Program-made: the position numbers and the translations under genes | Shown here: positions 6,463 through 51,886 of the stretch, piece after piece | Numbering within the stretch: the stretch's first letter is position 1 | Layout of the letters: every line of letters starts with the position of its first letter | From: Leucoraja erinacea | Taxonomy: Eukaryota | Direction: 5' to 3' | NCBI RefSeq assembly: GCF_028641065.1 | Contig: NW_026576860.1 | Location: forward strand, 1 to 64,000 | DNA: 64,000 bases | Notes under the pieces: model-generated | The model's database searches: none | Seen by the model: the letters and a program-made list of their open reading frames with translations, nothing else | What the model was told of the DNA's origin: nothing

Positions 6463-6599
6463 ACATCATTATATGGATATGGTAAGCAATGATATTGAGA
6501 AAAAATATTAATGCATTTTTAATTCATTTGGTGGCACTGAGACACTGTGAATTGTATTAACCTTTTTTTAAACTGATGGTTTAGCCTCTATGTTGCTTC

Positions 6600-10075: not shown

Positions 10076-10082
10076 AACGTAT

Positions 10083-12679: not shown

Positions 12680-12911
12680 TCTATATTACTAAAACTCAGT
12701 TCTTGACCGCTTTTCCCGATCTGTGCTGCGATTTCCGAGAGAACGCCGCCACCTACGGCCGTCATTTTTGGCCACCTCCCTCAGAGCCCCCCTCTGCCGC
12801 ATGTGTGCCGAGGATGTTTCCCCTCGATGAAATATGACCAAGATATTAATGTTTTTACATCATTCCCCATTCTCACTGCTGCCCCCACTGGCGGCAGGGG
12901 ACGGGAGGGGC

Positions 12912-13010
12912 TATAAAACCCGGGAGCGTCCCGCTTCAACTCACTTTCTTGCCGGCCACAAAGTGAAAGGGTCACGGCTCTCTGAGCTGCTGCTCTGCTC
13001 CCAGGTGAGT
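12912..13010 (+). promoter_or_regulatory. Putative Helitron Pol II promoter: TATA box, Inr and first splice donor
   Basis: TATAAAA at 12912, TCACTT at 12941 (A 31 nt after the first T of TATA), CAG|GTGAGT at 13004/13005; conserved in copies 2 and 3. Confidence 0.5.
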
Positions 13011-13427
13011 GCTTTTTCAGCCAATTGATCTGTATGTTATTCACCATGCTCTGAAGTCTCTGGGCATTTTGTTGGAAAGAGTTTGTATATTTGTCTACTA
13101 TCTATATTGTGTTTGAACTGTGGATTGAAAATAAAAACATTTGTATATTTTTCTGTCTATATTGTGTTTGCACTGTGAATTGAAAATAAAAACCATTTGG
13201 TATTGTTATAAAGCGTTTTGTAAATTTGTTTCTCTTGGGTTTTAAAATGGTTGCACCGGTTTTCAGGTAACTAAAGCATGATGTCTATTGTGTTTGAAAT
13301 GGTGATGTAAATTGAAATGCATTTGTTGCAACGTTTTCAGGCGAGTAATGCGCGAAAGAAGCTTTTTTATTTCGATCAAACTGTTTAAATTTAAAATTGG
13401 CGGACATTTTGTGATTTTGGCGGTTTG

Positions 13428-13546
13428 AAGATGGCGGCAATGACGTCATTTCCAATGAATGGTAAGATGGCGACGATCACTTCATTTCCGGCGATCGGTA
13501 AGATGGCGGCGATTACGTAATTTCCGGTCGGAGGCAAGATGGCGCT
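13428..13546 (+). promoter_or_regulatory. ~36-bp repeated module with YY1 (AAGATGGCG), CRE-like (TGACGTCA) and ETS-like (ATTTCCGG) motifs
   Basis: Four AAGATGGCG copies; related module at 24151-24235 and, reversed, at 41958-42000. Confidence 0.5.
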
Positions 13547-13846
13547 GAAGACGCGCACGAGGTGTTAGATAATGTTACAGAGCTGGTGAGTGTTTGGCAA
13601 TTTTGTTTCAGCAAAATCTGCAATTGTGAATGTGTGTATAATAAAAGGAGGAATTGTGTCCGGAAAGTAATACGGGTGTGTTGGAGATTTATATTGTAGC
13701 ACAAACAGTATTGATTTGTGTTTCATTTTGCACAGTTTATAGCCGATTATGTAAGCCCCCCCCCCCCCCCCCCCCCCCCCCCCCGCCACAGACTATCGCT
13801 GAAGCTGCTGGCTAATGGTGCCTGCAGCGACAAAGACACACGAAAG

Positions 13847-13849
<3 letters not shown>

Positions 13850-13886
<37 letters not shown>

Positions 13887-14112
13887 GCGCCACAATGGAC
13901 TGGCAGGCAATAAATGTACAGAGATATGTTTGAATGTGAATATATATGTGTGTGTGTGAATATGTGTGTGTGTGTGTGTGTGAGAATATGTGTGTGTGTG
14001 AATATGTATGTGCGAATATATATGTGTGTGTGTGTGTTTGAATATATATGTGTGCGAATATATATATGTGTGTGAGAATATATATGTGTGTTTGCGTGAG
14101 TGTGTGTGTGAA
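13850..14112. repeat. (AG)n and (TG/TA)n microsatellite block inside Helitron
   Basis: Directly visible. Confidence 0.9.
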
Positions 14113-14776
14113 TAGGGGGTTGCACGTAAGGTCACAAGGTAATAGGACTTGACGCACGGAGCCGCTCAAACCATCTGAAGACATCCGTCACTTCCAGTAT
14201 ATGTTATTAATGCAAGAAACGCGTACTTTCCTATCTGTTAAAAAACCGCCAAAATGTTGAATTTGTGCTCTGAAAAAAAATGTGGAAGTTGGAGTAAGTG
14301 TGAGAGACATGTACCCAACATTAGAATTCCAAACGTGAAATGAAATTAAGGTAAAGGGATGCGAGAATTGAAGGGACATCAGCAGCTAAAGTGCTTGGTA
14401 AAGATTGGCTGTGCAGATATCGTAATTGAAAATATTGGAATTATCGTGTTTGCTCACTGCATTTCATCAATAGTAAGGCATTATTCGTGTTTTTTTTTGA
14501 TTCCTTTGGTATTTAAAAATTCTCAGAAGTGATAAATCTGGCTGTAAATTTTTCTTCAGATGCGTTTTCATTTTGTACGTAAAAACCCACTTGAGAACCA
14601 TGGGCGATTTATTAAAAAAAAAATACAGCCAGATTTATCACTTCTGAAACTTTTTGATGTCAAAGGAATCAAGAAAAAACACAAATAATGCTTTAGTGTT
14701 GATGAAATGTAGTGAGCAAACAGCCAATGTTCGCTAAGCACTCTGTTTATTGTCCCTTCAGCTCTCACTTCTATCT

Positions 14777-15400
14777 AGATTCAGATTCAGATTCAGATTC
14801 AATTTTAATTGTCATTGTAAGTGTACAGTACAGAGACAACGAAATGCATTTAGCATCTCCCTTGAAGAGCGACATAGCAAACGATTTGAATAAAAAATAA
14901 ATAATAATAGGTGCGGGGGGGGGGGGGTGATTGGCAGTCACCGAGGTACGTTGTTTAGTAGAGTGACAGCGGCCGGAAAGAAGCTGTTCCTCGACCTGCT
15001 GGTTCGGCAACGGAGAGACCTGTAGCGCCTCCCGGATGGTAGGAGGGTAAACAGTCCATGGTTGGGGTGAGAGCAGTCCTTGGCGATGCTGAGCGCCCTC
15101 CGCAGACAGCGCTTGGTTTGGACAGACTCAATGGAGGGGAGCGTGGAACCGGTGATGCGTTGGGCAATTTTCACCACCCTCTGCAATGCCTTCCGGTCGG
15201 AGACAGAGCAGTTGCCATACCATACTGTGATGCAGTTGGTAAGGATGCTCTCGATGGTGCAGCGGTAGAAGTTCACCAGGATCTGACGAGACAGATGGAC
15301 CTTCTTCAGTCTCCTCAGGAAGAAGAGACGCTGATGAGCCTTCTTGATCAGAGTAGAGGTATTGTGGGTCCAAGAGAGGTCATCGGAGATGTTGACTCCC
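14777..15400 (-). mobile_element. 5'-truncated Rex1/Babar-type LINE nested in Helitron copy 1
   Basis: ORF 14938..15426 reads GVNISDDLSW...KKAHQRLFFLRRLK...FYRCTIESILT...WYGNC; (CTGAAT)n tail; empty site in copy 2 at ~26440. Confidence 0.9.
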
Positions 15401-16069
15401 TGTCTACTGACATTATCTACTGTCATTATCTACTGACATATCTACTGTCATTTCTCCTCACTTTTGGAATTCTGAAGTTGGCTAAATGTCTCACATGCTC
15501 ATCCCGATATCCATAATTATTTGCAGCTCAAAAATGGACATATTCAGCGGGTTTTAACGGATCCGCTACGTTCAGGTTCAGATTCAGATTCAGTTTCAAC
15601 TTTAATTGTCGTTGTCCGTGTACAGTAAACAGAGACAACGAAATTCGGTTAGCATCTCCCTGGAACATGGAGTTGGAAACGATGGTAAGTGCCTACCTGC
15701 AGTACATCGCGTGTAATCCATTTGGTGTAGCGTAGCAACAGTACGGGTCATGGGTCGTGACCCNNNNNNNNNNNNNNNNNNNNNNNNNNNNNNNNNNNNN
15801 NNNNNNNNNNNNNNNNNNNNNNNNNNNNNNNNNNNNNNNNNNNNNNNNNNNNNNNNNNNNNNNNNNNNNNNNNNNNNNNNNNNNNNNNNNNNNNNNNNNN
15901 NNNNNNNNNNNNNNNNNNNNNNNNNNNNNNNNNNNNNNNNNNNNNNNNNNNNNNNNNNNNNNNNNNNNNNNNNNNNNNNTGAGTGAATATGTGTGAGCGA
16001 TTATATGTGTGTGTGTGCATATGTGTGTGAGTTCATGTGAATATATATGTGTGTTTGAAATAATATAAT

Positions 16070-17175
16070 ATTTTGTAGTTCAGAGCTTATTTGTTAAGTT
16101 TAATAGTGTGATGGCTGTCAGGAAGAAGCTGTTCCTCAATGTAGATGTTACAGTTTTCAGTTTACATAAGTCGGACGTGACTCCAGAAGTCGGGCATCAG
16201 TCAGTCCACAAGCTGTGAGAGTCAGTCCAAAGGCCATGAGTTAATCCCAGGGCAGTGAGTCCACACGTCATGAGTAAATCGCTCACTGCCCCCTCTACTC
16301 CACTGACACCTCAAGACGCTGCCCTCCGCCTGGCTATAGGATGCACCCCCTACTGAAGCCGTCCACATCCCTTGCATGAGGACACCCCATCCCCTTCTCA
16401 TCAGTTCACGACAACCCCCGCCTGAAGCTGCCCTTGGCTGCACGACATTTACCACCCATAGGGCAGTGTCTTGAGGTGGGGGATGAGTCCGTATATATGT
16501 GTGTGTGATTAAGTCTGTGTGTGTGAGTGAGTCCGTGTGTGTGTGTGATTGAGTTTGTGTGTGCGTGAATGAGTCTGTTTGCGAATATGTGTATGAGAAT
16601 GTGTGAATATGTGTGAGAATGTGTCTGTGTGTGAATATGTGCGTGTATGTGTGTGTGTCTGAGTGTGTATGAATATATGTGTGTGTGTACGTATGAGTGA
16701 ATGTGTGTGAGTGAATGTGTGTGTATGAATATATGTGTGAGTGCGTGTGAATATATATGTGTGTGTGTGAAACAATAGTATATCGTAGTTCAGAGATTAT
16801 TTGTTAAGTTTATTAGCGTGATGGCTGTCAGGAAGAAGCTGTTCCTCAATGTAGATGTTACCGTTTTCAGTTTACAAAAGTCGGATGTGACTCCAGAAGT
16901 TGGGCGTCAGTCAGTCCACAAGCCGTGAGAGTCAATCAGTCTAAAGGGCATGAGTCAATCCCAAGGCAGTGAGTGAGTCCACAGATAATGAGTAAATCGC
17001 TCACTGCCCCCTCTCCTCCACTGACATGCCCCACATCCGCCTGGCAATAGATGCACCCCCTACTGAAGCCGCCCTCATCCCCTGCATGAGCCCTCCCCCA
17101 CACATTTCTCATCAGCTCACGAGAACCCCCACCAGAAACTGTGCCCCTCCCTTGGCTGCACGATGTTTACCACCC
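16070..17175 (+). repeat. ~390-bp internal direct duplication of the Helitron (16070-16460 / 16780-17175) separated by a (TG)n-rich tract
   Basis: GTAGTTCAGAG...TTGGCTGCACGA occurs twice; same arrangement in copies 2 and 3. Confidence 0.88.
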
Positions 17176-17292
17176 CCCCCCCACCCCACCCTGAGAGCCC
17201 CTACCTCAAAAAAAATGTTTTCCACAAAATCTTCAGTGTTCATTAACAACTGACATTGTCTTTGGGCTGCTTTATGAACATCATGTCAGGAA

Positions 17293-17565
17293 ATGTTATG
17301 TGATGTGGCTATTGCTGTAGTATCCTCTAGGATAGCAGCTACATTTCTGCCTGGTGGAAGAACGACACATTCTCGATTCCAAATATCCATCCAAGTGGCC
17401 GAGGATACATTGTGCAACATCGAGAAGAACTCTGAGACGGCACATTTCACGAGGCAAGTGAAAGTCATTGTTTGGGATGAATGTCCAATGATTAGGAGAG
17501 AATGCTTTGAAGTTGTGGACAGAACTCTTCCAGATGTCTTCAGCAACACCAAGCATATTGGTGCC
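17293..17565 (+). pseudogene. Helitron Pif1-family (SF1) helicase remnant
   Basis: AVVSSRIAATFLPGGRTTHSRF (motifs Ia/Ib) and IVWDECPM (Walker B), followed by VDRTL. Confidence 0.92.
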
Positions 17566-18616
17566 CCCCTGCCAGTACAGGCCTCAGTGACTGAGCTGTC
17601 CGCCCAAAAATCCATTCCGCCAACAAACTCCATACTAGCCCTCTGGAAACCAGTACCTTTGGCCCAACATACTAGCTCAACAGAAATATGAAGGGAAATG
17701 TCAAAGGTTTCCTGAAGGATGGAACATCGCCCAAGAATGTTGTCATTAATAGCGTGCTTCGTTGAATGATGACTTCTGAGGTAAATTCTCAGATTTTCCT
17801 TCTTAAAATCTGACCGCTGGCTTTCTCTATATTAAAATTGTCTCTTTTTATCAACAGGAAATAGTCATCAAGAGGCAGTGAACAGCAGAACACAACAAGA
17901 CGCAACAAGACACAACAAGTAAAAATTTAATAAATCTCATCTTTAAAATTTAAATTGTTCTTATATTTTAAGAGTCATTCACATTTTAAACTTTAATAAA
18001 ACCTTTTTACACTTTTAATGCCGTGTGTTCTTCATCACAATAGAACCTAATAGGCAGGAATGGCTGCTCTGTGGGAGAGCCACTAAGAGTGCATGGGGGG
18101 GAGATTGTTTGGAGATGCACTGAATGTGTGGGTGGGAGGGGAATGGCAAGGAGCAGAGTGGGGGGGGGTGAAGGTAGGTGGGGTGACTGAGTGAACTGCC
18201 AGCGTACCAGGCGTGAGTGACTGCACTGCCAGCCCACGAGCCGTGAGTTAGTGAACTGCCAGCCCAATAATCCATTAAGTCCACACTCTCCCCCTTCTCT
18301 CTATTACTGTCTGTCACCTGTTTTGGGCTCAATTTCTGGCAGTTTCTCAGCCGCCAGCCTGCCAGGTCAGAGTGATTGTACTGCCAGGCCTCAGTGATTG
18401 AGCTGCCAGCCCAAAAATCTATTTGGTCCGCAAACTCCATTCTAGCCCTCTGGTAATCAGTACCTTCGGCCCACAACGCTCATACTAGCGCAACAGAAAT
18501 CCCCCCTCCCACTGGCCAGCAATATTGGAATTGCTGCAGAGGTGGAATATTGTATTGGGTGTCCTGCCCTCCTGTGTGATGCTGGGACCCAAAGGGTCCC
18601 ACTTAGACTAGTATGT

Positions 18617-18619
<3 letters not shown>

Positions 18620-18651
<32 letters not shown>

Positions 18652-19361
18652 TTTATTTGTTAAGCACTTTAAAATCAACCAAAGCTGACCAAAGTGTTGT
18701 ACAGAAAAAAAAGCAAGACATCATAAAACAGGCAGGATAACAGAACATACAGCCAACATGAGGCGCATAAATTACATACGAAATTCAACAATAAATTAAA
18801 AGACATAAAACATGAGTATGAACCATGCAGTAAAATTAAGCAAATAAAGTTAACACATATGTCGACACCTTACTGATCTACAAAGGCCACGGAGAATAGA
18901 TGTGTCTTCAGGAGTGATTTAAAAACAGCTAGAGAATGGGCCTGTTTAACGTGTAGAGGCAATTCATTCCATAATATCGGTGCTGACACAGCAAAGGCAC
19001 GGTCCCCTCTGAGCTTCCGCTTAGTTTTAGGCCCACTCAGGAGCAGCTGATCATCTGACATGAGAGAGCGGGTGGATGTATAAGGGTGAAGAAGCTCAGA
19101 TAGGTAGGACGGGGCAAGACCATTTAGAGATTTAAAAACAAATTAAATATTTTTTAAATGAATCCTATACTGAACAGGCAGCCATTGGAGTGAGGCTAAA
19201 ATGTGTGAAACGTGATCATGTTTTCGTGTGCCAGTTAAGAGATGAACAGCTGCATTCTGTACCATCTGGAGATGGGCGATGGAGGACCGACTAACCCCCA
19301 TATACAGTGCATTGCAGTAATTCAGCCGGGTGGTAACAACGGCATGGATTACCATCTCAAA

Positions 19362-19364
<3 letters not shown>
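18620..19364 (-). mobile_element. L2 LINE 3' fragment with (TAA)n tail
   Basis: IHAVVTTRLNYCNAL...LQMVQNAA..LLTG...LQWLPV and GDRAFAVSAPILWNELP...FKSLLKTHLF. Confidence 0.9.

Positions 19365-19403
<39 letters not shown>
19365..19403. repeat. (TA)n microsatellite
   Basis: Directly visible. Confidence 0.95.
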
Positions 19404-19408
<5 letters not shown>

Positions 19409-19500
19409 TTGGGCACGGATTAATCGGATCGCGCACGGCCACCGAGGTTCATCCGTTCCCCAAAGCCACTGAGCTCGATAGTCAGCGGCTTAAACACATT

Positions 19501-19628
19501 AGTCTGAAGAAGGGTCTCGATCCGAAACGTCACCCACTCCTTCTCTCCAGTGATGCTGCCTGTCCCGCAGAGTGACTCCACCATTTTGTGTCTACCTTCG
19601 GTTTAAACCAGCATCTGCAGTTCCTTCA
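19501..19628 (+). mobile_element. Penelope-like terminal repeat with minimal hammerhead ribozyme motif
   Basis: CTGAAGA(19504)-A-GGGTCTCGATCC-GAAA-CGTC: hammerhead core, stem II, GAAA and GUC triplet. Confidence 0.7.
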
Positions 19629-19915
19629 TGCAGCTGAAACCAAGGTTTCTTTGGTGGAAGACGACTAACACGCGGGATACGGACGAGGACATTTCGACCA
19701 GCTAGCGAGTGAGATGAAGAGAAACAGGATGATTACAAACGGCCTCTAGAACGACATAGGTTACTATAAAGCTGGGAAAGGAAAGACGAACGGACACATG
19801 ACATGAGCAGCAGCGAGACTGCTAATCCCAAATGGGAACATAGGTTAAAGTTATATCAGAACGCGGAGCACATGGTACAAAGCTTCAACACGTTGAACAA
19901 GGTGAAAGGATTTAC

Positions 19916-19985
19916 CAGGAATTCCAAACGCCGCCAGAATCGGATAGGCAATCTCCTTCATGTACAGAATCGGAGCCCGCTCCAT
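19916..19985 (-). pseudogene. Orphan exon 1 of a GPR139/142-like GPCR paralogue
   Basis: 70-bp exon encoding MERAPILYMKEIAYPILAAFGIP + G|GTAAAT donor; same length as and highly similar to 32109-32178. No exon 2 was recognised downstream in the window. Confidence 0.8.
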
Positions 19986-22194
19986 TCTGGAAGTATTTCA
20001 GCAGCATTATCGGTTGACACAATGGAGCAAGAATAGTGGTACCGATCCTCAGTAATACTCGCTGAAATCCACTGCTGGGAACGAGCCATTACATTAGTGA
20101 CAGGTTCTTTAACAAACATGTTTTTTTCCCCACACAATTAATTTAATTTCAACAATCTCACAGAGGAGATGGGGGGGGGGGGGGGGCGATGAATTCAGTG
20201 CAACGAGTAGTGTAGGTTACAGGCGCATTTCTGCTACTTTTCTGAATCCAAAATTCAGTGTAATGGACTTCTGCTGTGGCGGGAATCGCTTCATTCACAG
20301 GGCAACGGGCCTGTTGGAGATTTAGGGATTGAACACATGGAAGCCTAAAATAAAAAATATCCGAAGCAGAGACGGGTAAAAGCTCTGAAATGTAAATTGC
20401 TAAATGGAAAGGTTATAAAGTGAAAGGAGGAAAGTTTAAATTAGATTTTCCAGTACAGTTATTCTTTATGTGCCTGGATGCGCGCCTTGGGCAGTTGGTA
20501 GATGTAGATCCCATGGCAACATTTAGGAGGGATTTAACCGCACGTGTACAGGCAGACAATGGAGGTGCACACATCGTATGCACCCAGATAAGACCAGAGG
20601 CGCTGACATCATAATCGGCGCAGACATGGTGGGCGGTATTTCTTCCAACCCTGAACTGATTAGGTTCACGATGGGCCAGCAAACCGAAGGACTTGAGGGG
20701 AGCTTATGTCTGTGGCATGAATGTAAACCAGGCCAAAGATGTTCAGACAGATGTGGGGAAAACCGTGCACATATTTGGAATTGCACGCGCATGGCCACAA
20801 ATGGAAAATGAGGCTGGAGAACCGAACTGAAGTTTGCTATGAGGAGGACGTCGATGGTGCTTCAGGGATGAAATGCCACTATGGTCTATAATCCAGATGA
20901 AATGGATCTGCGAAGGATTGGTGTTTAATGGCAAATAGGCGCAATATTACGAGTAGCCTTTTAAAGTATTTTGACGACCTCAGTGTGTTGACCTGTTTCG
21001 TATGTTGGTGGTTTGAGGAAACGGGAGTCTCTCCCACTGTTGATGCCGCAAATGCATCAAAGAGCACACGACGAGCAGACAGTTCATCAACTTGTGGCTG
21101 AAGCAATGAAGCAAACTCTAACACGTTATCTCCCAGAATTAACGTGGAAACTATTGAACGGGTTAAAGTAAGAATATATCCGTTAGCAGCCCGCCAATGG
21201 TGGACTTGGCACCCACCCTGCCTCTTGAGAGAAAGGAGAGAGCGTGGTCTTCGACGGGAGACAAATGTCGGAGAGAGTGGACGAGCGCTCCGGCTGGAAG
21301 GGGAAGGAGGGGGTGTGGGGTTAGGGGTTCTAAAGAGGACGCGAGTCTCTGACGGCTCCCACTGTTCGAATGCCGATACTTTTCAACAAACATTAAAGAC
21401 GATTTGCTCAACAGGTCGTTGGTAGACGGAATATTTGACTTCAATCTGTGCATCCTGATGTCTGCCTGCATTGAGCTGAGGCTGGTGACTGAGAACTGGA
21501 TTTAAGGCTCCTGTAGTCAAAACGTTCCCTGCTCTGGGGCTCCGGTCTCGGTGCCTGATCAGAACACATCTGCTGGGCGAGGCGGCCATTGACAGGAAGG
21601 TGGTGAGCATCTCCCAAGGTATTGCGCCTGTACAGGGTTCAAACGCTTGATCTCGTCCTCCTCTCCAAATGTTTCTGCGAATCGTCAACATAGCTTGAAG
21701 ACCGCAGCCGTGACGCGACACCACTTCCTGTGGCTTGATGTCAAGTAGTCAACCCGCAGCAGAAAACAAAAGCGACCAAAACTCAACCATTGACGGGAAA
21801 TGAAGCCAACATTGGTAACAGGTCGGCCCGAGAAGATATCTCAGCGACAGAGAGAAGATAAGATCTAACCTTTACGGAAAACGTCGGTCTCCAAAAAACG
21901 GCTCCATGTTAAACTGCCTACAGACCGCGTGTGGAGATGAAACTGAGATAAACAAATGCACCAGAGGCCAATAACTAACCCTGGCATCTCCATGCGAAAC
22001 GCTGTCGTGCACTTTGATCTTCTTCACGCACTCCATGCACCGGTCCCACATACCCCAGCCTGTATATTCTGACCGCTGTAAAATAACTACCCGATATTTC
22101 GGAGAGTACAAATCAGCCAGATATCGCCTCCTGCACCCGCCGCTCCATTGAACTAATAATTTGTTTACTCATTTCCATCCAAATCCAGAACAAA

Positions 22195-23122
22195 AGGCAA
22201 TTAGGAAAGGGAAAATTGATTATGAAACAAAACTGACAGGGAACATAAAAACTGAACGCAAAACTTTTTATAGATATGTGAAGAGAAAACAATTAGTTAA
22301 AACAAATGTAGGTCCTTTGCAGTCAGAAACAGGTGAATTGGTCATGGGGAACAAGGACATGGCAGGCCAATTCAATAACTACTTTGGTTCTGTCTTCACT
22401 AAGGAAGACATAAATAATCTACCGGAAATAGCAGGGGATCGCGGGTCAAATGAGATGGAGGAACTGAGTGAAATCCAGGTTAGCCAGGAAGTGGTGTTAG
22501 GTAAATTGAATGGATTAAAGGCAGATACATCCCCAAGGCCAGATAGGCTGCATCCCAGAGTACTTAAGGAAGTAGCTCCAGAAATAGTGGATGCATTAGT
22601 GATAATTTTTCAAAACACTTTGGGTTCTGGAGTAGTTCCTGAAGATTGGAGGGTAGCTAATGTAACCCCACTTTTTAAAAAGGGAGGGAGAAGAAAACGG
22701 GGAATCACAGACCAGTTAGTCTACCATAGGCAGTGGGGAAACTGCTATAATCAGTTATGAAAGATGGGATAGCAGCACATTTGGAAAGTGGTGAAATCAT
22801 TGGACAACGTCAGCATAGATTCATGAAAGGTAAATCATGTCTGACAAATCTTATAGAATTTTTCGAGGATGTAAATTGTAGAGTGGATAAGGGATAACCG
22901 GTGGCAGTGTTATATCTGGACTTTCACAAGCCTTTCGACAAGGTCCCACATAAGAGATTAGTATACAAACTTAAAGCACACGGTATTGGGGGTTCAGTAT
23001 TTATGTGGATAATGAACTGGCTTGCAGACAGGAAGCAAAGAGTAGGAGTAAACGGATCCTTTTCACAATGACAGGCAATGACTAGTGGGGTACCGCATGG
23101 CTCAGTGCTGGGACCCCAGTTA
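22195..23122 (+). mobile_element. CR1 LINE ORF2 (RT N-half), interrupted by Helitron copy 2
   Basis: LHPRVLKEVA..IVDAL..IFQ...VPEDWRVANVTPLFKKG; downstream YLDF..FDKVPH and SGVP.GSVLGP; CR1 resumes at 29505-29740. Confidence 0.92.
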
Positions 23123-36081: not shown

Positions 36082-36668
36082 CATAGAAACATAGAACATA
36101 GAAAATAGGTGCAGGAGTAGGCCATTCGGCCCTTCGAGTCTTCACCCCCAATCAATATGATCATGGCTGATCATCTAACTCAGTATCCTTTACCTGCTTT
36201 CTCTCCCTACCCCCGGATACATTTAGCCACAAGGGCCACATCTAACCATCTTAAATATAGCCAATGAACTGGCCACCAAGACCCTGTACAACTGCAGTAG
36301 ATCCTCCCTGCTGCTATACTCAAATCCTTTTGCTATGAATGCTAACATACCATTTGCTTTCTTCACTGCCTGCTGCACCTGCATGCCTACTTTTAATGAC
36401 TGATGTATCTTGACACCCACGTCTCGTTGCATCTCCCCTTTTCCTAATCGGCCAACATTCAGATAATAGTCTACTTTCCTGTTTTTGCACTTTTGTACAC
36501 AAAAGTGGATAACCTCACATTTATCTACATTATACTGCATCTGCCATGCATTTGCCCACTCACCCAGCCTATTCAAGTCACCTTGCAGCCTCCTAGCAAC
36601 CTCCTGACAGCTACCACACCCCCCCCCCCCCCGCCCCTCTCCCCAGCGCCATGTCATCCGCAAACTTG
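36082..36668 (-). mobile_element. CR1 RT C-half and 3' end
   Basis: KFADD at ~36652-36667; LQGDLNRLGEWANAWQMQYNVDKCEVIH; continues the CR1 at 43017-43945. Confidence 0.9.
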
Positions 36669-39600
36669 GCCAGTGGGAGGGGGGGGGGGGGGGCTTTATG
36701 TTGCGCTAGTATGAGCGTTGTGGGCCGAAGGTACTGATTTCCAGACGGCTAGTATGGAGTTTGTGGGCCAAATGGATTTTTGGGCTGGCAGCTCAATCAC
36801 TGAGGCCTGGCAGTACAATCACTCGGACCTGGCAGGCTGGCGGCTGAGAAACTGCCAGAAATTGTGCTCAAAACAGGTTACAGACAGTAAGAGAGAGAAG
36901 GGGGAGAGTGTGGACTTAATGGATTATTGGGCTGGCAGTTCACTAACTCACGGCTCGTGGGCTGGCAGTGCAGTCACTCACGCCTGGTACGCTGGCAGTT
37001 CACTCAGTCATCCCACCTACCTTCACCCCCCCCCCACTCTGCTCCTTGCCATTCCCCTCCCACCCACACATTCAGTGCGTCTCCAAACAATCTCCCCCCC
37101 CTCCACGCACTCTTAGTGGCTCTCCCACAGAGCAGCCATTCCTCCCTATTAGGTTCTATTGTGATGAAGAACACACAGCGTTAAAAGCGCAAAAAGGTTT
37201 TATTAAAGTTTAAAATGTGAATGACTCTTAAAATATAAGAACAATTTAAATTTTAAAGATGAGATTTATTAAGTTTTTACTTGTTGTGTCTTGTTGTGTT
37301 CTGCTGCTCACAGCCTCTTGATGACTATTTCCTGTTGATAAAAAGAGACAATTTTAATATAGAGAAAGTCAGCGGTCAAATTTTAAGAAGGAAAATCTGA
37401 GAGTATCTCAGATCATCATTCAACGAAGCACGCTATTAATGACAACATTCTTGGGCGATGTTCCATCCTTTAGGAAACTTTTGACATTTCCCTTCATATT
37501 TCTGTTGAGCTAGTATGCTGGGCCAAAGGTAATGGTTTCCAGTGGGCTAGTATGGAGTTTGTGGGCGGAATGGGTTTTTGGGCGGGCAGCTCAGTCACTG
37601 TACTGGCAGGGGGGCACCAAAATGCTTGGTGTTGCTGAACACTTCAGTCCACAACTTCAAAGCATTCACCCCTAATCATTGGACATTCATCCCAAACAAT
37701 GACTTTCACTTGCCTCGTGAAATGTGCCGTCTTAGAGTTCTTCTTGATGTTGCACAATGTATCCTCGGCCACTTGGATGGGTATCTTGAATCGAGAATGT
37801 GTCGTTCTTCCACCAGGCAGAAATGTAGCTGCTATCCTAGAGGATACTACAGCAATAGCCACATCACATAACATTTCCTGACATGATGTTCAAAAAGCTG
37901 CCCAAAGACAATTTCAGTTGTTAATGAACACTGAAGATTTTGTGCAACACATTTTTTTGAGGTAGAGCTGTCAGGGTGGGGTGGGGGGTGGTAAACATCG
38001 TGCTGCCAAGGGTGGGGCACAGCTTCAGATGGGGGTTCTCGTGAGCTGATGAGAAATGTGTGGGGGGGGGGGGGCTCATGCAGGGGATGAGGGCGGCTTC
38101 AGTTGGGGGTTCATCTATTGCCAGGTGGATGTGGGGCATGTCAGAGGAGGAGAGGGGGCAGTGCGCGATTTACTCATGACCTGTGGACTCACTCACTGCC
38201 TTGGGATTGACTCATGCCCTTTAGACTGATTGACTGTCACGGCTTGTGGACTGACTGATGCACGACTTCTGGAGTCACATCCGACTTTTGTAAACTGAAA
38301 ACGGTAACATCTACATTGAGGAACAGCTTCTTCCTGACAGCCATCACGCTAATAAACTTAACAAATAAGCTCTGAACTACGAAATACTATATTATTTCAC
38401 ACACACACATATATATNNNNNNNNNNNNNNNNNNNNNNNNNNNNNNNNNNNNNNNNNNNNNNNNNNNNNNNNNNNNNNNNNNNNNNNNNNNNNNNNNNNN
38501 NNNNNNNNNNNNNNNNNNNNNNNNNNNNNNNNNNNNNNNNNNNNNNNNNNNNNNNNNTTCTCATACACATATTCACAAACAGACTCATTCACGCACACAC
38601 AAANNNNNNNNNNNNNNNNNNNNNNNNNNNNNNNNNNNNNNNNNNNNNNNNNNNNNNNNNNNNNNNNNNNNNNNNNNNNNNNNNNNNNNNNNNNNNNNNN
38701 NNNNNNNNNNNNNNNNNNNNNNNNNNNNNNNNNNNNNNNNNNNNNNNNNNNNNNNNNNNNACAGACTCATCCACCACCTCAAGACACTGCCCTATGGGTG
38801 GTAAATGTCGTGCAGCCAAGGGCAGCTTCAGGCGGGGGTTGTCGTGAACTGATGAGAAGGGGGTGGGGTGTCCTCATGCAAAGGATGTGGACGGCTTCAG
38901 TAGGGGGTGCATCCTATAGCCAGGCAGAAGGCAGCGTCTTGAGGTGTCAGTGTAGTAGAGGGGGCAGTGAGCGATTTACTCATGACGTGTGGACTCACTG
39001 CCCTGGGATTAACTCATGGCCTTTGGACTGACTCTCACAGCTTGTGGACTGACTGATGCCGACTTCTGGAGTCACGTCCGACTTATGTAAACTGAAAACT
39101 GTAACATCTCCGTTGAGGAACAGCTTCTTCCTGACAGCCAACGCACTATTAAACTCACCAAATAAGCTCTGAACTACAAAATATTATATTATTTCACACA
39201 CACATATATATCCACATGCACTCACACACATATGCACACACACATATAATCGCTCGCACATATTCACTCACATATTCAGACACACACATGTACACAAACA
39301 TACATATAGACACACGCACATATTCACACACACACACACATACACACACACACATTCACTCACACACATATTCGCACACACACACGTAAATATTCACACA
39401 CACACACATATTCACACGAACACATATATATTCACACACACACGCATACACAGAGGGAGGTTTCACGGCAGTCGGGTCACGACCCATGACCCGTACTGTT
39501 GCTACGCTACACCAAATGGATTACACGCGATGTACTGCAGGTAGGCACTTACCATCGTTTCCAACTCCATCTTCCAGGGAGATGCTAACCATTTTCGTTG

Positions 39601-41122
39601 TCTCTGTACTGTACACTGACAACGCCAATTAAAGTTGAATCTGAATCTGAATCGGAACCTGAACGTAGCGGATCCGTTAGAACCCGCCGAAAATGTCCAG
39701 TTTTGCGCTGCAAATAATTATGGAAATTGGGATGAGCATATGAGATATTTAGCCTACTTCAGAGAGCTGGAGGGACAACAAAGAGTGCTTAGCGAACATT
39801 GGCCGTTTGCTCACTACATTTCATCAACACTAAAGCATTATTTGTGTTTTTTTCTTGATTCCTTTGGCATCTAAAAAGTTTCATGTGATAAATCTGGCTG
39901 TATTTTTTAAAAATAAATCGCCCATGGTTCTCAAGTGGGTTTTTACGTATAAAATGAAAGCGCATCTGAAGGAAAATTTACAGCCAGATGTATCACTTCT
40001 GAGAATTTTTAAATACTAAAGGAATCAAGTAAAACACGAATAATGCCTTACTGTTGATGAAATGCAGTGAGCAAACACGATCATTCCAATATTTTCAATT
40101 ACGATATCTGCACAGCCAATCTTTACCAAGCACTTTAGTTGCTGTTTTCCCTTCAATTCTCGCAGCCCCTTACCTTCATTTCATTTCACGTTTAGAATTC
40201 TAATGTTGGGTACATGTCTCTCACACTTACCCCAATTTCCACATTTATTTTCAGAGCACACATTCAACAATTTGGCGGTTTTTAACAGATAGAAAAGTAC
40301 GCGTTTCTTGCATTAATAACATATACTGGAAGTGACAGATGTCTTCAGATGGTTTGAGCGGCTCTGTGCGGGGCCCGGGGCAGCGGGGAGAGAGAGTGCG
40401 GGGTCCGGGGCAGCGAGGAGAGAGAGTGCGGGGCCCGGGGCAGCGGGGAGAGAGAGTGCGGGGCAGCGGGGGAGAAGGAGTGCGCGGTCCGGGGCAGCGG
40501 GGAGAGGGAATGCGGGGTCCGGGGCAGCGGGGAGAGAGAGTGCGGGGGCAGCGGGGAGAAGGACTGCGCGGTCCGGGGCAGCGAAGAGAGGGAGTGCGGG
40601 GTCCCGGGGCAGCAGCGAGAGAGAGAGTGCGGTGCCCGGGGCAGCGAGCAGAGGGGCATAGGAGGGGGGGCATGAGAGTAAGGGGGCAGGCGAGAGAGAG
40701 TGCCGGGGGGGGATAAGGACTAGTGTGTGTAAAGTTGCAGGGAGGTTTACAATGTTTCTTATTTACAATGTTTGTTATTTAATGTCCCTTGTCTAGTCTG
40801 AAATAAAGTTCATTATTGGATTAGAAGAAATATAATTGTGTGTGTTATATACATTTATATAATTGTCATGTATGTGTGTTTATAAACATTTTATTCTTTA
40901 ACAAGAATCAACAGAATTATGAACTAACAGAATTATGAACCCTCTAACCCTATATCAGAGAGAGTGCGGGTACCCCCGGGGCAGCCCCCCCCCGAGTGCC
41001 CCGCCCCCCCCCATGGGAGCAGAGGTTGGGGGCCCGGGGCAGCGGTGAGAGAGAGTGCCCCCCCCGTGGGCCCCGAGGGTGCCCCCCCCCCCCCCCCCCC
41101 CACCCACACACCCCCCCCCCCC

Positions 41123-41175
<53 letters not shown>

Positions 41176-43016
41176 TGTCAATCACCCTGCGAGTCGGGTC
41201 GGTTCCGGTTACTACAAAATCAACTCAAACACTGCTTGTGAGCCATTTAAAAAGAAATGATTTAAAAAAACATTAAAAAAGACAACTACCAGAATCAAAT
41301 TTTATTCTTGACAAGAAGTTTGAACTGACAGATTTATGAATCTGACCCACACAAACTGGTGCCCCGCAACATTGATTACAGTGCGAGTCGGGTCGGGTCA
41401 GGTAGGCTCAGGTTGCTAAAATGGGTGTGGAAAAAATGCCCATGATCCCCTCCATAGCGTACTACACGTCAGTCCATTGAATTTAGCAGGAGTAGTCTCT
41501 CTTGCTTTGCTATAAGATCTTTGGTGCTGATCGAAATAAAAAGGTTCTTTTCGCGCATTACTGGCCTGAAAACGTTGCATCAAATGCATTTCAATTTACA
41601 TCACCATTTCAAACACAATAGACATCATGCTTTAGTTAACTGAAAACCGGTGCAACCATTTTAAAATCCAAGAGAAACAAATTTGCAAAACGCTTTATAA
41701 CAAAAAGAAATGGTTTTATTTTCAATTCACAGTTCAAACACAATATAGATAGACAAATATACAACTGAAAATGCTTTTCATTTTCAATTCACAGTTCAAA
41801 CACAATATAGATAGACAAATATACAAACTCTTTCCAACAAAATTCCAAGAAACTTCAGAGCATGGTGAATAACATACATATCAATTGGGTGAAAAAGCAC
41901 TCACCTGGGAGCAGAGCTGCAGCTCAGAGAGCCGTGACTTTTTCACTTCGTGGCTCGCCGGAAATGACGTAATCGCCGCCATCTTACCGATCGCGGAAAT
42001 CACAAAATGTCCGCCAATTTTAAATTTAAACACAGTCTGATCGAAATAAAAAAAGGTTCTTTCGCGCATTACTGGCCTGAAACCGTTGCAACAAATGCAT
42101 TTCAATTTACATCACCATTTCAAACACAATAAACATCATGCTTTAGTTACCTGAAAACCGGTGCAACCATTTTAAAACCCAAGAGAAACAAAATATGCAA
42201 AACGCTTTACATCAATAACAACTGGCTTTTATTTTCATTTCACAGCTCAAACACAGTATAGATAGACAAATATACAAATGGTTTTTATTTTCAATTCACA
42301 GTTCAAACACAATGTAGATAGACAAATATATAAATGGTTTTTATTTTCAATTCACAGTTCAAACACAGTATAGATAGACAAATATACAAATGGTTTTTAT
42401 TTTCAAATTCGCAGTTCAAACACGGTATAGATAGACAAATATTCAAATGGTTTTTATTTTCAATTCACAGTTCAAACACAATATATATAGACATATACAA
42501 ATGGTTTTTATTTTCAATTCACAGTTCAAACACAATATAGATAGACAAGTATACAAATGTTTTTTATTTTCAATTCACAGTTCAAAAACAATATAGATAG
42601 TAGACAAATATACAAACTCTTTCCAACAAAATTCCAAGAAACTTCAGAGCATGGTGAATAACGTACATATCAATTGGGTGAAAAAGCACTCACCTGGGAG
42701 CAGAGCTGCAGCTCAGAGAACCGCGACCCTTCCACTTCGTGGCCGGGAAGAAAGTGATTGAAGCGGGTCGCTACCGGGTTTTATAGCCCCTCCCTCCCCT
42801 GCCGCCAGCGGGGGCAGCAGAGAGAATGGGGAATGATGTAAGAACATTAATATCTCGGTCATATTTCATCGAGGGGAAAAATCCTCGGCACACATGCGGC
42901 AGAGGGGGGCTCTGAGGGAGGTGGCCAAAAATGACGGCCGTAGGTGGCGGCGTTCTCTCGGAAATCGCAGCACAGATCGGGAAAAGCGGTCAAGAACTGA
43001 GTTTTAGTAATGTAGA
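36667..43016 (-). mobile_element. Helitron copy 3 (3' hairpin/CTAG deleted)
   Basis: TCTACATTACTAAAA on the minus strand from 43016; helicase remnant at 37620-37874. Confidence 0.9.
40370..41523 (+). mobile_element. Right part of the CAAAGATCTTATAG TIR element nested in Helitron copy 3, with a ~30-bp G-rich repeat (40370-40640)
   Basis: Ends in CTATAAGATCTTTG; the terminal ~65 bp is an imperfect inverted match to 10351-10417. Confidence 0.65.
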
Positions 43017-45782
43017 TAACTGGGGTCCCAGCACTGAGCCATGCGGTACCCCACTAGTCATTGCCTGTCATTGTGAAAAGGATCCGTTTACTCCTACTCT
43101 TTGCTTCCTGTCTGCAAGCCAGTTCATTATCCACATAAATACTGAACCCCCAATACCGTGTGCTTTAAGTTTGTATACTAATCTCTTATGTGGGACCTTG
43201 TCGAAAGGCTTGTGAAAGTCCAGATATAACACTGCCACCGGTTATCCCTTATCCACTCTACAATTTACATCCTCGAAAAATTCTATAAGATTTGTCAGAC
43301 ATGATTTACCTTTCATGAATCTATGCTGACGTTGTCCAATGATTTCACCACTTTCCAAATGTGCTGCTATCCCATCTTTCATAACTGATTATAGCAGTTT
43401 CCCCACTGCCTATGGTAGACTAACTGGTCTGTGATTCCCCGTTTTCTTCTCCCTCCCTTTTTTAAAAAGTGGGGTTACATTAGCTACCCTCCAATCTTCA
43501 GGAACTACTCCAGAACCCAAAGTGTTTTGAAAAATTATCACTAATGCATCCACTATTTCTGGAGCTACTTCCTTAAGTACTCTGGGATGCAGCCTATCTG
43601 GCCTTGGGGATGCATCTGCCTTTAATCCATTCAATTTACCTAACACCACTTCCTGGCTAACCTGGATTTCACTCAGTTCCTCCATCTCATTTGACCCGCG
43701 ATCCCCTGCTATTTCCGGTAGATTATTTATGTCTTCCTTAGTGAAGACAGAACCAAAGTAGTTATTGAATTGGCCTGCCATGTCCTTGTTCCCCATGACC
43801 AATTCACCTGTTTCTGACTGCAAAGGACCTACATTTGTTTTAACTAATTGTTTTCTCTTCACATATCTATAAAAAGTTTTGCGTTCAGTTTTTATGTTCC
43901 CTGTCAGTTTTGTTTCATAATCAATTTTCCCTTTCCTAATTGCCTTTTGTTCTGGATTTGGATGGAAATGAGTAAACGAATTATTAGTTCAACGGAGCGG
44001 CGGGTGCAGGAGGCGATATCTGGCTGATTTGTACTCTCCGAAATATCGGGTAGTTATTTTACAGCGGTCAGAATATACAGGCTGGGGTATGTGGGACCGG
44101 TGCATGGAGTGCGTGAAGAAGATCAAAGTGCACGACAGCGTTTCGCATGGAGATGCCAGGGTTAGTTATTGGCCTCTGGTGCATTTGTTTATCTCAGTTT
44201 CATCTCCACATGCTTAACACGCGGTCTGTAGGCAGTTTAACATGGAGCCGTTTTTTGGAGACCGACGTTTTCCGTAAAGGTTAGATCTTATCTTCTCTCT
44301 GTCGCTGAGATATCTTCCCTGGCCGACCTGTTACCAATGTTGGCTTCATTTCCAGTCAATGGTTGAGTTTTGGTCGCTTTTGTTTTCTGCTGCGGGTTGA
44401 CTACTTGACATCAAGCCACAGGAAGTGGTGTCGCGTCACGGCTGCGGTCTTCAAGCTATGTTGACGATTCGCAGAAACATTTGGAGAGGAGGACGAGATC
44501 AAGCGTTTGAACCCTGAACCGCCGTCAGAGACTCGCGTCCTCTTTAGAACCCCTAACCCCACACCCCCTCCTTCCCCTTCCAGCCGGAGCGCTCGTCCAC
44601 TCTCTCCGACATTTCTCTCCCGTCGAAGACCACGCTCTCTCCTTTCTCTCAAGAGGCAGGGTGGGTGCCAAGTCCACCATTGGCGGGCTGCTAACGGATA
44701 TATTCTTACTTTAACCCGTTCAATAGTTTCCACGTTAATTCTGGGAGATAACGTGTTAGAGTTTGCTTCATTGCTTCAGCCACAAGTTGATGAACTGTCT
44801 GCTCGTCGTGTGCTCTTTGATACATTTGCGGCATCAACAGTGGGAGAGACTCCCGTTTTCTCAAACCACCAACATACGAAACAGGTCAACACACTGAGGT
44901 CGTCAAAATACTTTAAAAGGCTACTCGTAATATTGCGCCTATTTGCCATTAAACACCAATCCTTCGCAGATCCATTTCATCTGGATTATAGACCATAGTG
45001 GCATTTCATCCCTGAAGCACCATCGACGTCCTCCTCATAGCAAACTTCAGTTCGGTTCTCCAGCCTCATTTTCCATTTGTGGCCATGCGCGTGCAATTCC
45101 AAATATGTGCACGGTTTTCCCCACATCTGTCTGAACATCTTTGGCCTGGTTTACATTCATGCCACAGACATAAGCTCCCCTCAAGTCCTTCGGTTTGCTG
45201 GCCCATCGTGAACCTAATCAGTTCAGGGTTGGAAGAAATACCGCCCACCATGTCTGCGCCGATTATGATGTCAGCGCCTCTGGTCTTATCTGGGTGCATA
45301 CGATGTGTGCACCTCCATTGTCTGCCTGTACACGTGCGGTTAAATCCCTCCTAAATGTTGCCATGGGATCTACATCTACCAACTGCCCAAGGCGCGCATC
45401 CAGGCACATAAAGAATAACTGTACTGGAAAATCTAATTTAAACTTTCCTCCTTTCACTTTATAACCTTTCCATTTAGCAATTTACATTTCATCATATTGC
45501 TTATGCATAAAATGCCCTGGCCTTCTCCTTCATTATACTTGCCTGGAAACGTCCATGGCTTTCTTGTTTAAATTATTTCCTGCTTTCTTTATGTTCGGCT
45601 GCCTACCGTTTCCTAACTTTACATTTGGTTCTTCTTTGATTAAGGTTACAATATTTCTTATCATCCAAGGTTTACAATCTCGCCATCATGTCGTCATTCC
45701 AACTAGGCTCTAAACTCTGATTATCTGGCTTTCAAAGTATTCCCACCAATTAGACGAGGATACATTAAAAAGGCCAGTTCAA

Positions 45783-49300: not shown

Positions 49301-50172
49301 TTTTGCCTGTCGTAGATACCTTGACTAGTCCGACAGCTTTACTTCCTCATCCAGATTTTTTACCTGTTTGGCTAGGTCTTTCCCAAGGAGAAGATTCGGC
49401 GGCTGGACATTGCTGGCCTCGCCATCCATAGTCTCCCCAGATAGCGCTGTTCACTGCCGGCACTTTGTTCCTGTAATGATGTGACGTGAGGTCACTGATG
49501 CTCACCAAGCTCCAGCTTTTCTGCAGTGGCTCCTCCGTTTGCATTGCTATCGCAACAATTGATACCATGACAGAATTTTTGAACCTCACGCATGCACTCC
49601 AGTATGTTTCGCAGACATGCCCCCGAGTTTGGACTCAGCCACACACTGACTGCCTACGCTCCCCTCCTCAGAGAGGGAGATATAATGCAGCCGTGCACCA
49701 GGCGCTGTCGCGGGCCCGCGAGACCCGCGCTGATATGACTCAGTTCCTTGGAGTATATCATGGTGGAGTATATTTTCCATGAGATGCTCTATCCGGGAAA
49801 GACGTCCGAAGACGCTCTCCACTGCAGGAGGCGAACTCTCCCGGCCGGACTCGTCCGAGTCAACAGGACGGCCGAGCCGGGTCTCCCCGCGGAGCCGGGT
49901 TCCCCTCGCGGAGCCGGGATTCCCCACGGTCTCCGTAGCCGGGTTTCCCTGCGGAGACAGGATTTAGACCAAGGAACGTCATCCAACAGGAACTCTGTAA
50001 AAGAGCTTCATGCAAGACAAAAAGCGCAACCTGATAAATAAGTTCGAAACTTGCTTTCCGGTTTAAAACTTACCGCTGGAGGAGCGAGGACAGCCAGCCG
50101 TGCGCCATGCGTGAACGCGCATGCGGGCTGGCGGGTTCTTCACGTAGTCACTCACGTGACCCCGAAGTTAAA
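46391..50172 (-). mobile_element. DIRS1-type tyrosine-recombinase retrotransposon (degenerate, termini intact)
   Basis: YR remnant HPTRAA...LTAAGWS (46912-47106); methyltransferase-like IDLFAS...DAFS...LIVPDWPTQSW (47330-47734); RT YLDD at ~48486-48497; inverted terminal repeats; ICR at 46618-46730 complementary to both ends. Confidence 0.92.
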
Positions 50173-50561
50173 TTCAATAACCGTCAGGCACATTGTACAG
50201 GTCAGTCGAATCCGCAGCGCCCTGAAGCGTCGCGTGGACGGTAATATCTGTCATCCCGAGATCAGAAACCGGAGGACTTCAATTATTCTGTTATTTGCCA
50301 TCTCGGGGAGTTTCACTGCGCTTTGGACTACGGTTATGATACTCGACGTGTTTTGAAGTCACGCACAGTTTTGTGGTCAACGCCTCGAGGTCCCGTTATC
50401 TTGCGATTAGAATATCGCTTCTGCTAATGTATTTGAGTTCCTGTAAAAACACTTGTATTCAAACACTTGGCCAGAGGAGGTTCCGGGAGGAAGCGAAGAA
50501 AGTGATAGCATATACATTTATTATTATTGTCCGGTTTTTACAAAACAAATTAGATCGTTGA
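50171..50561 (+). pseudogene. GPR139/142-like GPCR fragment (end of TM5 to C-terminus)
   Basis: NSITVRHIVQVSRIRSALK...EIRNRRTSIILLFAISGSF, then a stop/frameshift, then LMYLSSCKNTCI...QRRFREEAKKVIAY. Confidence 0.88.
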
Positions 50562-51495: not shown

Positions 51496-51500
51496 AAGAC

Positions 51501-51688
51501 CGAAGATAGACACAAAATGCTGGAGGAACTGGTCGGTACAAACAGCGTCTCTGGAGAGGAGGAATTGCGGACGCTTCGGGTCGAGACAATCTGACGAAGG
51601 ACCTCGACTCGAAACATCACCCATTCCTTCTCTCCAAAGATGCTGCCTGTCCCGCTGAGATACCCCAGCATTTTGTGTCTGTCTTCAG
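51501..51688. mobile_element. Fold-back pair of Penelope-like termini
   Basis: GAAGATAGACACAAAATGCTGG...CCAGCATTTTGTGTCTGTCTTC inverted arms. Confidence 0.7.
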
Positions 51689-51886
51689 ACGTTAGTTTAG
51701 TTATACAGCGCGAAAAGAGGCCCTTCGGCCCACCGAGTCCGCATTGACCAGTGACGCATTACACTGTCATTAATGAACATTAACAAGGGCTGTAGATTTG
51801 CTGCCTCACATCGCCACAGACCCACGTTCTCCCCGTGACCTGCGTGGGTTTTCTCCGGGTGCTCCGGTTTTTTCCAACACCACAAT

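What the first reader, a model, noticed from the sequence alone, without database searches (positions are those of the whole stretch)
20386..45491. 25-kb quasi-palindrome (10.7-kb inverted arms, 3.7-kb spacer) enclosing a GPCR gene: a candidate invertible segment
Seen: 20386-31049 and 34776-45491 are reverse complements, and the spacer holds almost exactly one GPR139-like gene. Established: long inverted arms permit recombination that flips the spacer. Inference: flipping it puts this GPCR head-to-tail with the minus-strand paralogue at 19985. It also makes the right arm contiguous with its apparent native flanks (an old CR1 runs across 45491). The locus may therefore have been duplicated and then inverted, and could be orientation-polymorphic.
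Basis: partly seen in the sequence, partly recalled or inferred. Interest (0 to 1): 0.75.

Follow-up and report, generated by a model that had tools for sequence, protein, structure and literature searches.

The report
Inversion scar around dead skate receptor
The mirror-image repeat is real and is likely the scar of one DNA-repair accident that flipped a receptor gene, duplicated the 10.7 kb next to it and cut off the gene's tail, a known kind of rearrangement whose middle could flip again but likely with no effect.

Summary
The arms (20386-31049 / 34776-45491) and the 3,726-bp spacer are real. They match at 99.6-99.9% only in the outer and inner blocks (4.0 kb); the shared Helitron-like middle differs by 2-3%. 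Four of four paralogous contigs run from the arm into the right flank, and a fifth has the spacer gene head-to-tail with the left-flank paralogue. So there are two new joints (20385|20386 and 34759-34779) and about 2.8 kb is inferred lost. A 17-mer from the arm's outer tip is pasted into the inner joint, which ties both joints to one event: a deletion-inversion-duplication, with no later flip needed. Public contigs span both joints (3 of 4 and 1 of 4 runs). The enclosed GPR139-like gene is frameshifted and truncated. The left arm's Helitron interior lacks all 53 private variants of the right copy: a swap with a young copy, or an assembly fill. Orientation polymorphism is untested; depth in one sample weakly hints at a haplotype without the left arm. 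This is a known class, and the scan has reported similar scars in other genomes.

The parts
20386..31049 (+). Left arm. New joint at its outer end; natively continuous with the spacer at its inner end
34776..45491 (-). Right arm (reverse complement of the left). New joint at its inner end; natively continuous with the right flank
31050..34775 (+). Spacer (3,726 bp): rest of a dispersed repeat, upstream region and the broken GPCR gene
20385..20386 (.). New joint J2: upstream region of the minus-strand paralogue joined to the arm's outer tip
   Evidence: Homology to C721 ends at 20384; spanned by contigs of runs X1, X18, X20
34760..34779 (+). New joint J1: GPCR coding sequence ends at 34759, then 2 filler bases, then a 17-mer (34762-34778) identical to the arm's outer tip, overlapping the arm's inner end by 3 T
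   Evidence: spanned by one 282-bp contig of run X19
45473..45489 (+). Template of the 17-mer, ending 2 bp from the arm's outer tip (mirror copy at 20388-20404); native to the arm in paralogues
32109..32178 (+). Exon 1 of the spacer GPCR; donor reads GC (GT in 20 of the 21 other exon-1 copies found on fetched contigs)
33935..34759 (+). Exon 2 of the spacer GPCR: 1-bp frameshift at the G run 34600-34602, stop at 34603-34605, last ~22 codons replaced by J1
19916..19985 (-). Exon 1 of the neighbouring GPR139-like paralogue; no exon 2 found in the window
23123..29504 (+). Helitron-like copy B in the left arm: same 5' insertion site as copy C, young interior, own 3' deletion joint at 29504|29505
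36667..43016 (-). Helitron-like copy C in the right arm: old (53 private variants), 3' end truncated, inserted in a LINE remnant
12680..18611 (+). Independent, complete Helitron-like copy A (5' TC after A, 3' hairpin then CTAG before T, PIF1 fragment), outside the arms
21357..21632 (+). 276 bp present only in the left arm (ancestral by paralogues); the right arm has 4 filler bases instead
30864..31850 (.). Genome-wide dispersed repeat that crosses the left-arm/spacer edge and is cut at the right arm's inner end

Best explanation
This is a real inversion of a broken GPR139-like gene plus its 10.7-kb upstream flank, with that flank duplicated at one breakpoint, likely about 2.8 kb deleted at the other, and likely formed in one repair event. 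The inferred ancestral order was: right flank, arm, gene, gene tail plus ~2.8 kb, next paralogue. Staggered breaks at the two ends of the arm (or replication template switches) would leave four loose ends. The arm's inner end would first prime on the arm's outer tip through 3 bases of microhomology and copy 14 bases (the start of a tandem-duplication joint), then let go and join the gene's cut tail; the outer tip would join the paralogue's upstream DNA. The present orientation is therefore the likely direct product. Later, the Helitron interior of the left arm was likely overwritten from a young copy elsewhere, or was filled so by the assembler. Recombination between the arms could flip the spacer, but it would move a pseudogene between near-identical flanks.
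For: Right edge native in 4 of 4 paralogous contigs, which also lead from the arm to a same-strand GPCR exon 1. Left inner edge native. C721 shows the gene homologue, a 2,832-bp gap and the left-flank homologue head-to-tail. Three paralogues give the native tail that is missing after 34759. The 17-mer occurs only at 20388, 34762 and 45473 in the window; chance about 7e-7 for junction-adjacent windows. Templated insertions within ~20 bp of breakpoints with 2-3 bp microhomology are the described end-joining signature (PMC11541566, passages). J2 is spanned in 3 of 4 runs and J1 in 1 of 4 among the listed pieces; the right-arm deletion joint is in 4 of 4 runs and left-only sequence in 3 of 4. Copy B shares 5 exclusive alleles with copy C in its first 400 bp, but has 0 private variants in 2,972 sites against 53 in 2,871 for C.
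Against: No read or contig spans an arm, so cis linkage of J1 and J2 and the spacer's orientation rest on the assembly. J1 has one supporting contig (depth 4.2, 3 differences), and that table showed 32 of 135,648 pieces. The ancestral neighbour order and the 2.8-kb loss come from one 86%-identical paralogue (1 full-length hit besides the window). Insertion followed by a flip gives identical joints and cannot be excluded. The arm is much longer than the Drosophila breakpoint duplications (at most 1.9 kb; PMC1885836). Copy B's lack of private variants (about 4 expected, P about 0.02) also fits a consensus fill. Run X1 matches the window letter for letter in several contigs and may be its source sample.
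Confidence: 0.65

Rival explanations
1. Two steps: a copy of the arm was inserted, inverted, at a break in the gene's tail, and a later crossover between the arms flipped the spacer; both orientations may segregate.
For: Same joints as the best model. In the flipped isomer the inserted arm is bracketed by the 17-mer, as an attempted circularisation of a linear fragment would leave. Perfect arm stretches of 893, 632, 568 and 492 bp are long enough for crossover (threshold recalled). Spacer inversions are common in primate X palindromes (PMC8327919, passages).
Against: It needs one more event than the best model. No data here show the flipped isomer. The arms carry large heterologies (276 bp, ~470 bp, a diverged 6-kb middle).
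Confidence: 0.22
2. The joints are real, but the left arm's middle was bridged by the assembler with a family-consensus Helitron, so the spacer's orientation in this contig is arbitrary and the 'Helitron swap' is not biological. This is compatible with the best explanation for the joints.
For: Copy B has the fewest private variants of 38 copies (0 of 2,972). The contig is a 64,246-bp piece. No contig spans the element (searches did not cover it).
Against: Other copies are nearly as young (1 of 1,959, 2 of 2,315, 3 of 2,930). B has its own 3' joint with a short insertion not seen in 8 other copies or in C. Copy C in the same contig kept its 53 private variants.
Confidence: 0.3
3. An older duplication whose unique blocks are kept alike by arm-to-arm gene conversion, the Helitron middle showing the true age.
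For: Run X20 has a contig across J2 with 7 substitutions and 1 gap in the arm part and none in the flank part; X18 shares some of them. The derived 276-bp deletion appears at about twice the depth of left-only sequence in X18 and X20.
Against: If the middle were simply older, both copies should carry private variants; B carries none. Contigs merge alleles and drop minor variants, so the variants cannot be phased to arms.
Confidence: 0.15
4. The palindrome is a mis-join of two haplotypes or a chimeric-read artefact.
For: Small unplaced-size contig in a heavily duplicated gene family (150 of 150 scored exon hits).
Against: Both new joints occur in public contigs from two studies. Both arm versions occur together in X1, X18 and X20. 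Arm contigs are about twice as deep as spacer contigs in X18 and X19. A templated insertion is not an assembler's product.
Confidence: 0.04

Closest known systems
CNV-flanked inversions, delINVdup / dupINVdel class of complex structural variants (PMC5338099, passages; case P2 in PMC6286558, passages)
   Same: Inversion with a deletion at one breakpoint and a duplication at the other; two new joints with microhomology and short inserted sequence.
   Different: Described in human genomes (P2: 1.2 Mb deletion, 246 kb duplication); here about 2.8 kb and 10.7 kb in a skate receptor array, with the insertion copied from the other breakpoint.
Inversions with inverted duplications at breakpoints by staggered breaks (Ranz et al. 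2007, PMC1885836, passages)
   Same: The inverted repeats are the product of the inversion, not its cause; only one breakpoint is duplicated (12 such cases there).
   Different: Duplications there are at most about 1.9 kb and about 88% identical; here 10.7 kb with blocks at 99.6-99.9%.
Templated insertions of polymerase-theta-type end joining (PMC11541566, passages)
   Same: Template within 20 bp of a breakpoint, on retained DNA, with 2-3 bp priming microhomology.
   Different: There mostly under 10 bp and at single deletion joints in cultured cells; here 17 bp linking two joints. The enzyme was not tested.
Large palindromes of the primate X (PMC8327919, passages)
   Same: Arms over 8 kb around a short spacer; spacers can invert by recombination between arms.
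   Different: Those need at least 99% arm identity and mostly carry genes in the arms; here 94% overall, no gene in the arms, a pseudogene in the spacer, and no evidence of conservation or sex linkage.
Non-allelic gene conversion among Helitron-derived elements (ISX, PMC4384637, two passages)
   Same: Sequence exchange between dispersed copies of one Helitron-derived family at fixed insertion sites.
   Different: There a small haplotype spreads under selection; here about 5.5 kb would be overwritten with a new 3' joint and no function shown.

Membership tests
delINVdup / inversion with breakpoint duplication | Segment inverted relative to the ancestral order | tested here: met
   Four paralogous contigs give flank-arm-exon 1 in one direction; C721 gives gene then neighbour head-to-tail
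delINVdup / inversion with breakpoint duplication | Inverted duplication of ancestrally single-copy sequence at one breakpoint | tested here: met
   The outer 971 bp has two ~100% copies, both in this contig; other hits are at most 86% identical
delINVdup / inversion with breakpoint duplication | Deletion at the other breakpoint | tested here: met
   Native tail of 3 paralogues is absent after 34759; 2,832 bp lie between the homologous points in C721. Size is from a paralogue.
delINVdup / inversion with breakpoint duplication | Both joints on one molecule, formed together | tested here: inconclusive
   The shared 17-mer links them; no spanning read
Templated-insertion end joining | Inserted bases copied from within ~20 bp of a breakpoint with short priming microhomology | tested here: met
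   17-mer ends 2 bp from the outer tip; 3-T overlap with the inner end
Templated-insertion end joining | Dependence on polymerase theta | not testable with these tools
   Signature only; template switching in replication gives similar joints
Large palindrome (primate X criteria) | Arms over 8 kb | tested here: met
   10,664 and 10,716 bp
Large palindrome (primate X criteria) | At least 99% arm-to-arm identity | tested here: not met
   94.0% ungapped overall; over 99% only in 4.0 kb
Recurrent (toggling) inversion between inverted duplications | Both spacer orientations found in a population | not testable with these tools
   Only short-word contigs were offered; none spans an arm
Helitron (copies A, B, C) | 5' TC after A, 3' hairpin then CTAG before T, no target duplication | tested here: met
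   Complete in copy A and in many genomic copies; B and C lack the 3' end. The end rule is recalled.
Helitron (copies A, B, C) | Rep-helicase coding sequence | tested here: inconclusive
   Only PIF1 fragments (E 6e-25 and 4e-27): non-autonomous
GPR139 orthologue | Closer to human GPR139 than to other class A receptors | tested here: inconclusive
   Database relatives are named 'probable GPCR 139', but against solved structures GPR139 scores E 0.002, behind the vasopressin V2 and mu-opioid receptors; no tree was built

The most novel reading that the evidence does not exclude
A young rearrangement still segregating in skates keeps a frozen record of an aborted tandem-duplication joint. Its arms flip the spacer and exchange sequence, and one arm's 6-kb Helitron was overwritten in place by an active family member, making it a natural assay for how the huge GPR139-like receptor arrays of sharks and rays kill genes and how Helitron copies are rejuvenated.
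Probability: 0.2. Interest if true: 0.5.

Novelty: new member of a known kind. Interest (0 to 1): 0.3.

Why it matters
It is a clean, base-resolved example of a known rearrangement class in a cartilaginous fish. It shows that such long inverted repeats can be the product of an inversion rather than its cause, and that a gene-family member can be truncated this way. The 17-mer copied from one breakpoint into the other is an unusually direct sign that both joints formed together. The only open item of wider interest is the in-place swap of a Helitron interior, if it is not an assembly fill.

Tried and rejected
1) Arms as terminal repeats of a giant transposon: rejected. The outer and inner edges cut through older repeats, each is native on one side only, and the outer block has no other close copy. 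2) The 17-mer as a target-site duplication native to the gene tail: rejected. It is native to the arm tip in 4 of 4 paralogues and absent from 3 of 3 paralogous tails. 3) Copy B as a conversion product of neighbouring copy A: not supported. Shared sites with A and C are interleaved and other contigs hold closer copies (0.2-0.8%). 4) Sampling bias towards B: addressed by adding 15 regions picked with C; in the four segments from 26445 on, C's nearest sampled copies stayed 2.2-3.5% away, and 4.3% in 25800-26430. 5) A second Helitron 5' end inside B (a fresh insertion): none found at up to 2 mismatches. 6) Depth as copy number: X18 fits 1 left: 2 right: 3-4 shared: 2 spacer, X1 does not clearly, X20 is ambiguous. 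The tool warns that contig depth is no copy number, so this is only a hint, and an unassembled close paralogue would look the same. 7) J2 and the left-only piece are uncovered in X19, and J1 is not among the listed pieces of X1, X18 and X20: no evidence either way. 8) PDB search with the truncated protein found 0 matches. 9) Literature: searches for the receptor expansion listed no paper on it by title or abstract; I opened none of those. Supplements were not read for any paper.
Full report
Observation. The window is almost all of a 64,246-bp contig (C1679) of a 2.19-Gb genome. The closest intact paralogue of the enclosed gene is 100% identical to a database protein labelled 'probable G-protein coupled receptor 139 [Leucoraja erinacea]', so this is a skate. 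The inverted arms are at the stated coordinates: 10,664 and 10,716 bp around 3,726 bp. Identity is uneven: 0.45% substitutions in 20386-23119, 0.13% in 29505-31049, and 2.6-3.2% in the aligned middle. A low-complexity stretch near 24.5-25.8 kb barely aligns, and overall ungapped identity is 94.0%. The left arm alone has 276 bp at 21357-21632; the right arm alone has about 470 bp at 36321-36796.

Ancestral order. Four paralogous contigs (C324, C980, C1093, C1048; all four fetched for this test) align continuously across 45491 into the right flank and lead from the arm to a same-strand GPCR exon 1. A dispersed repeat crosses 31049 into the spacer and is cut at 34776. In C721 the spacer gene's homologue ends at 192544, and 2,832 bp later the homologue of the window's 19411-20384 begins, carrying the next gene on the same strand. 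It was the only full-length hit for that flank besides the window. The ancestor is therefore inferred to be flank-arm-gene-tail-next gene. The window has two new joints, J2 (20385|20386) and J1 (34759-34779). Relative to the ancestor, spacer-plus-arm is inverted, the arm is duplicated, and the gene's tail with about 2.8 kb is gone.

The joints. At J1 the coding sequence stops at 34759. Two filler bases follow, then 17 bases identical to 45473-45489, the last bases but two of the arm's outer tip, overlapping the arm's inner end by three T. The 17-mer occurs only at 20388, 34762 and 45473 in the window. It is native to the arm tip in 4 of 4 paralogues and absent from 3 of 3 paralogous gene tails. 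The chance of such a match between junction-adjacent windows is about 7e-7. Read on the other strand, the inner end primed on the outer tip and copied 14 bases. That is the start of a head-to-tail joint of the arm with itself, abandoned for the gene tail. Templates within about 20 bp of breakpoints with 2-3 bp priming microhomology are the described signature of polymerase-theta-type end joining (PMC11541566, passages); the enzyme is inferred only.

Mechanism. The simplest reading is one event. Staggered breaks at the two arm ends, or template switches, give an inversion with a duplication at one breakpoint (PMC1885836, passages) and a deletion at the other, the delINVdup class (PMC5338099 and PMC6286558, passages). 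The present orientation is then the direct product.

Is it real? Contigs of four public runs (3 samples, 2 studies; 4 of the 24 runs listed) were laid on two stretches. J2 is bridged in X1 (407 bp, no difference), X18 (268 bp) and X20 (540 bp, 7 substitutions and 1 gap), and is uncovered in X19. J1 is bridged by one 282-bp contig of X19 with 3 differences; that table listed 32 of 135,648 pieces. The right-arm deletion joint is seen in 4 of 4 runs and left-only sequence in 3 of 4. X1 may be the source sample. In X18, left-only and J2 contigs have depth 3.7-4.2, the right-only joint 9, shared arm 12.1-15.5, and difference-free spacer contigs 6.9-11.3. This would fit a second haplotype, or an unassembled paralogue, with spacer and right arm but no left arm. 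X1 (5.2, 4.7, 14-17.4, 7.3-13.7) does not show this pattern clearly, and the tool warns against reading depth as copy number. Nothing spans an arm, so orientation polymorphism is untested.

The gene. It matches 7tm_1 and belongs to a very large family (150 of 150 scored hits). It has a GC donor where 20 of 21 other exon-1 copies have GT. It has a one-base frameshift at 34600-34602 with a stop at 34603-34605, and it has lost about 22 C-terminal codons at J1. It is likely a pseudogene. A contig with the extra G exists in X18 (depth 5.6 of 12.6), which is an allele or a paralogue. The name GPR139 is a database label; against solved structures human GPR139 does not score best. The neighbour at 19985 has only exon 1 in the window. 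A flip of the spacer would leave this pseudogene between near-identical 1.5-kb blocks, so an effect is unlikely.

The arm middle. It is a non-autonomous Helitron-like element (PIF1 fragments; Helitron-type ends in the complete copy at 12680-18611 and in other genomic copies), inserted at the same base in both arms. In the first 400 bp, copies B (left) and C (right) share 5 alleles absent from all 21-22 other copies, so they stem from one insertion. From 25800 on, B has 0 private variants in 2,972 sites and C has 53 in 2,871, among 38 copies (20 regions picked with B, 15 with C, 3 in the window). B is 0.2-0.8% from copies on other contigs but 2.1-4.5% from C, so B's interior was not copied from C. 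Either it was overwritten by ectopic repair from a young copy, ending in B's own 3' deletion joint (conversion among Helitron-derived copies is known, PMC4384637, two passages), or the assembler filled it with a consensus-like copy. About 4 private variants would be expected at the flanks' age (P about 0.02 for none), so a swap would be recent. If it is a fill, the spacer's orientation in this contig is arbitrary, though the four adjacencies still force a palindrome if both joints are in cis.

Comparison and verdict. It fails the 99% identity criterion used for primate X palindromes (PMC8327919, passages) and has no gene in its arms. It meets the testable features of a deletion-inversion-duplication. 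Earlier notes of this scan describe similar scars in other genomes and the receptor family in this genome; none lay near this place. Those notes are unchecked and were seen after my reading was set. Verdict: a real, well-resolved new example of a known rearrangement class; interest 0.3.

Noticed in passing
window 19365-19411 and 1-19400: Homology of the neighbouring paralogue to C721 stops at 19411 beside an (AT)n run; its exon 2 is not in the window, so this gene is also broken or pushed off the contig by repeats.
   Followed up: partly
window 50156-50540: A third, plus-strand GPCR exon-2 3' fragment with stops (39% identity over 59 aa).
   Followed up: no
window 54547-58258: LTR-retroelement-like reading frames (RVT_1 and RNase H-like domains), split over several frames.
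   Followed up: no
window 29480-29505 and 44522 region: Two more joints with short, apparently templated filler: the 3' deletion of Helitron copy B, and the 4 bases replacing 276 bp in the right arm.
   Followed up: partly
window 23245-23353: Seven changes private or nearly private to copy B cluster in 108 bp of the Helitron 5' end, perhaps a short conversion tract from the related 250-bp repeat.
   Followed up: no
G000 C324, C980, C1093, C1048 (L001-L010): Four contigs carry the same multi-gene GPCR segment at about 85% identity to the window, with converging gene pairs and a plus-strand exon 1 whose ATG appears changed: old segmental duplicates of this array.
   Followed up: no
window 32466-32652: A 187-bp hairpin repeat (78% arm identity) in the GPCR intron, with relatives at 19500, 50660 and 51500-51690 and very high depth in public runs.
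   Followed up: no
L035, L044, L050 (G000): Helitron-like copies in which a new 5' end follows directly on a 3' end, i.e. head-to-tail or back-to-back insertions.
   Followed up: no
window 3287-4003 and 8308-9024: A 720-bp direct repeat at 97% identity, 5 kb apart.
   Followed up: no
window 10541-12478: A 1.9-kb G-rich minisatellite with a 22-25-bp unit.
   Followed up: no
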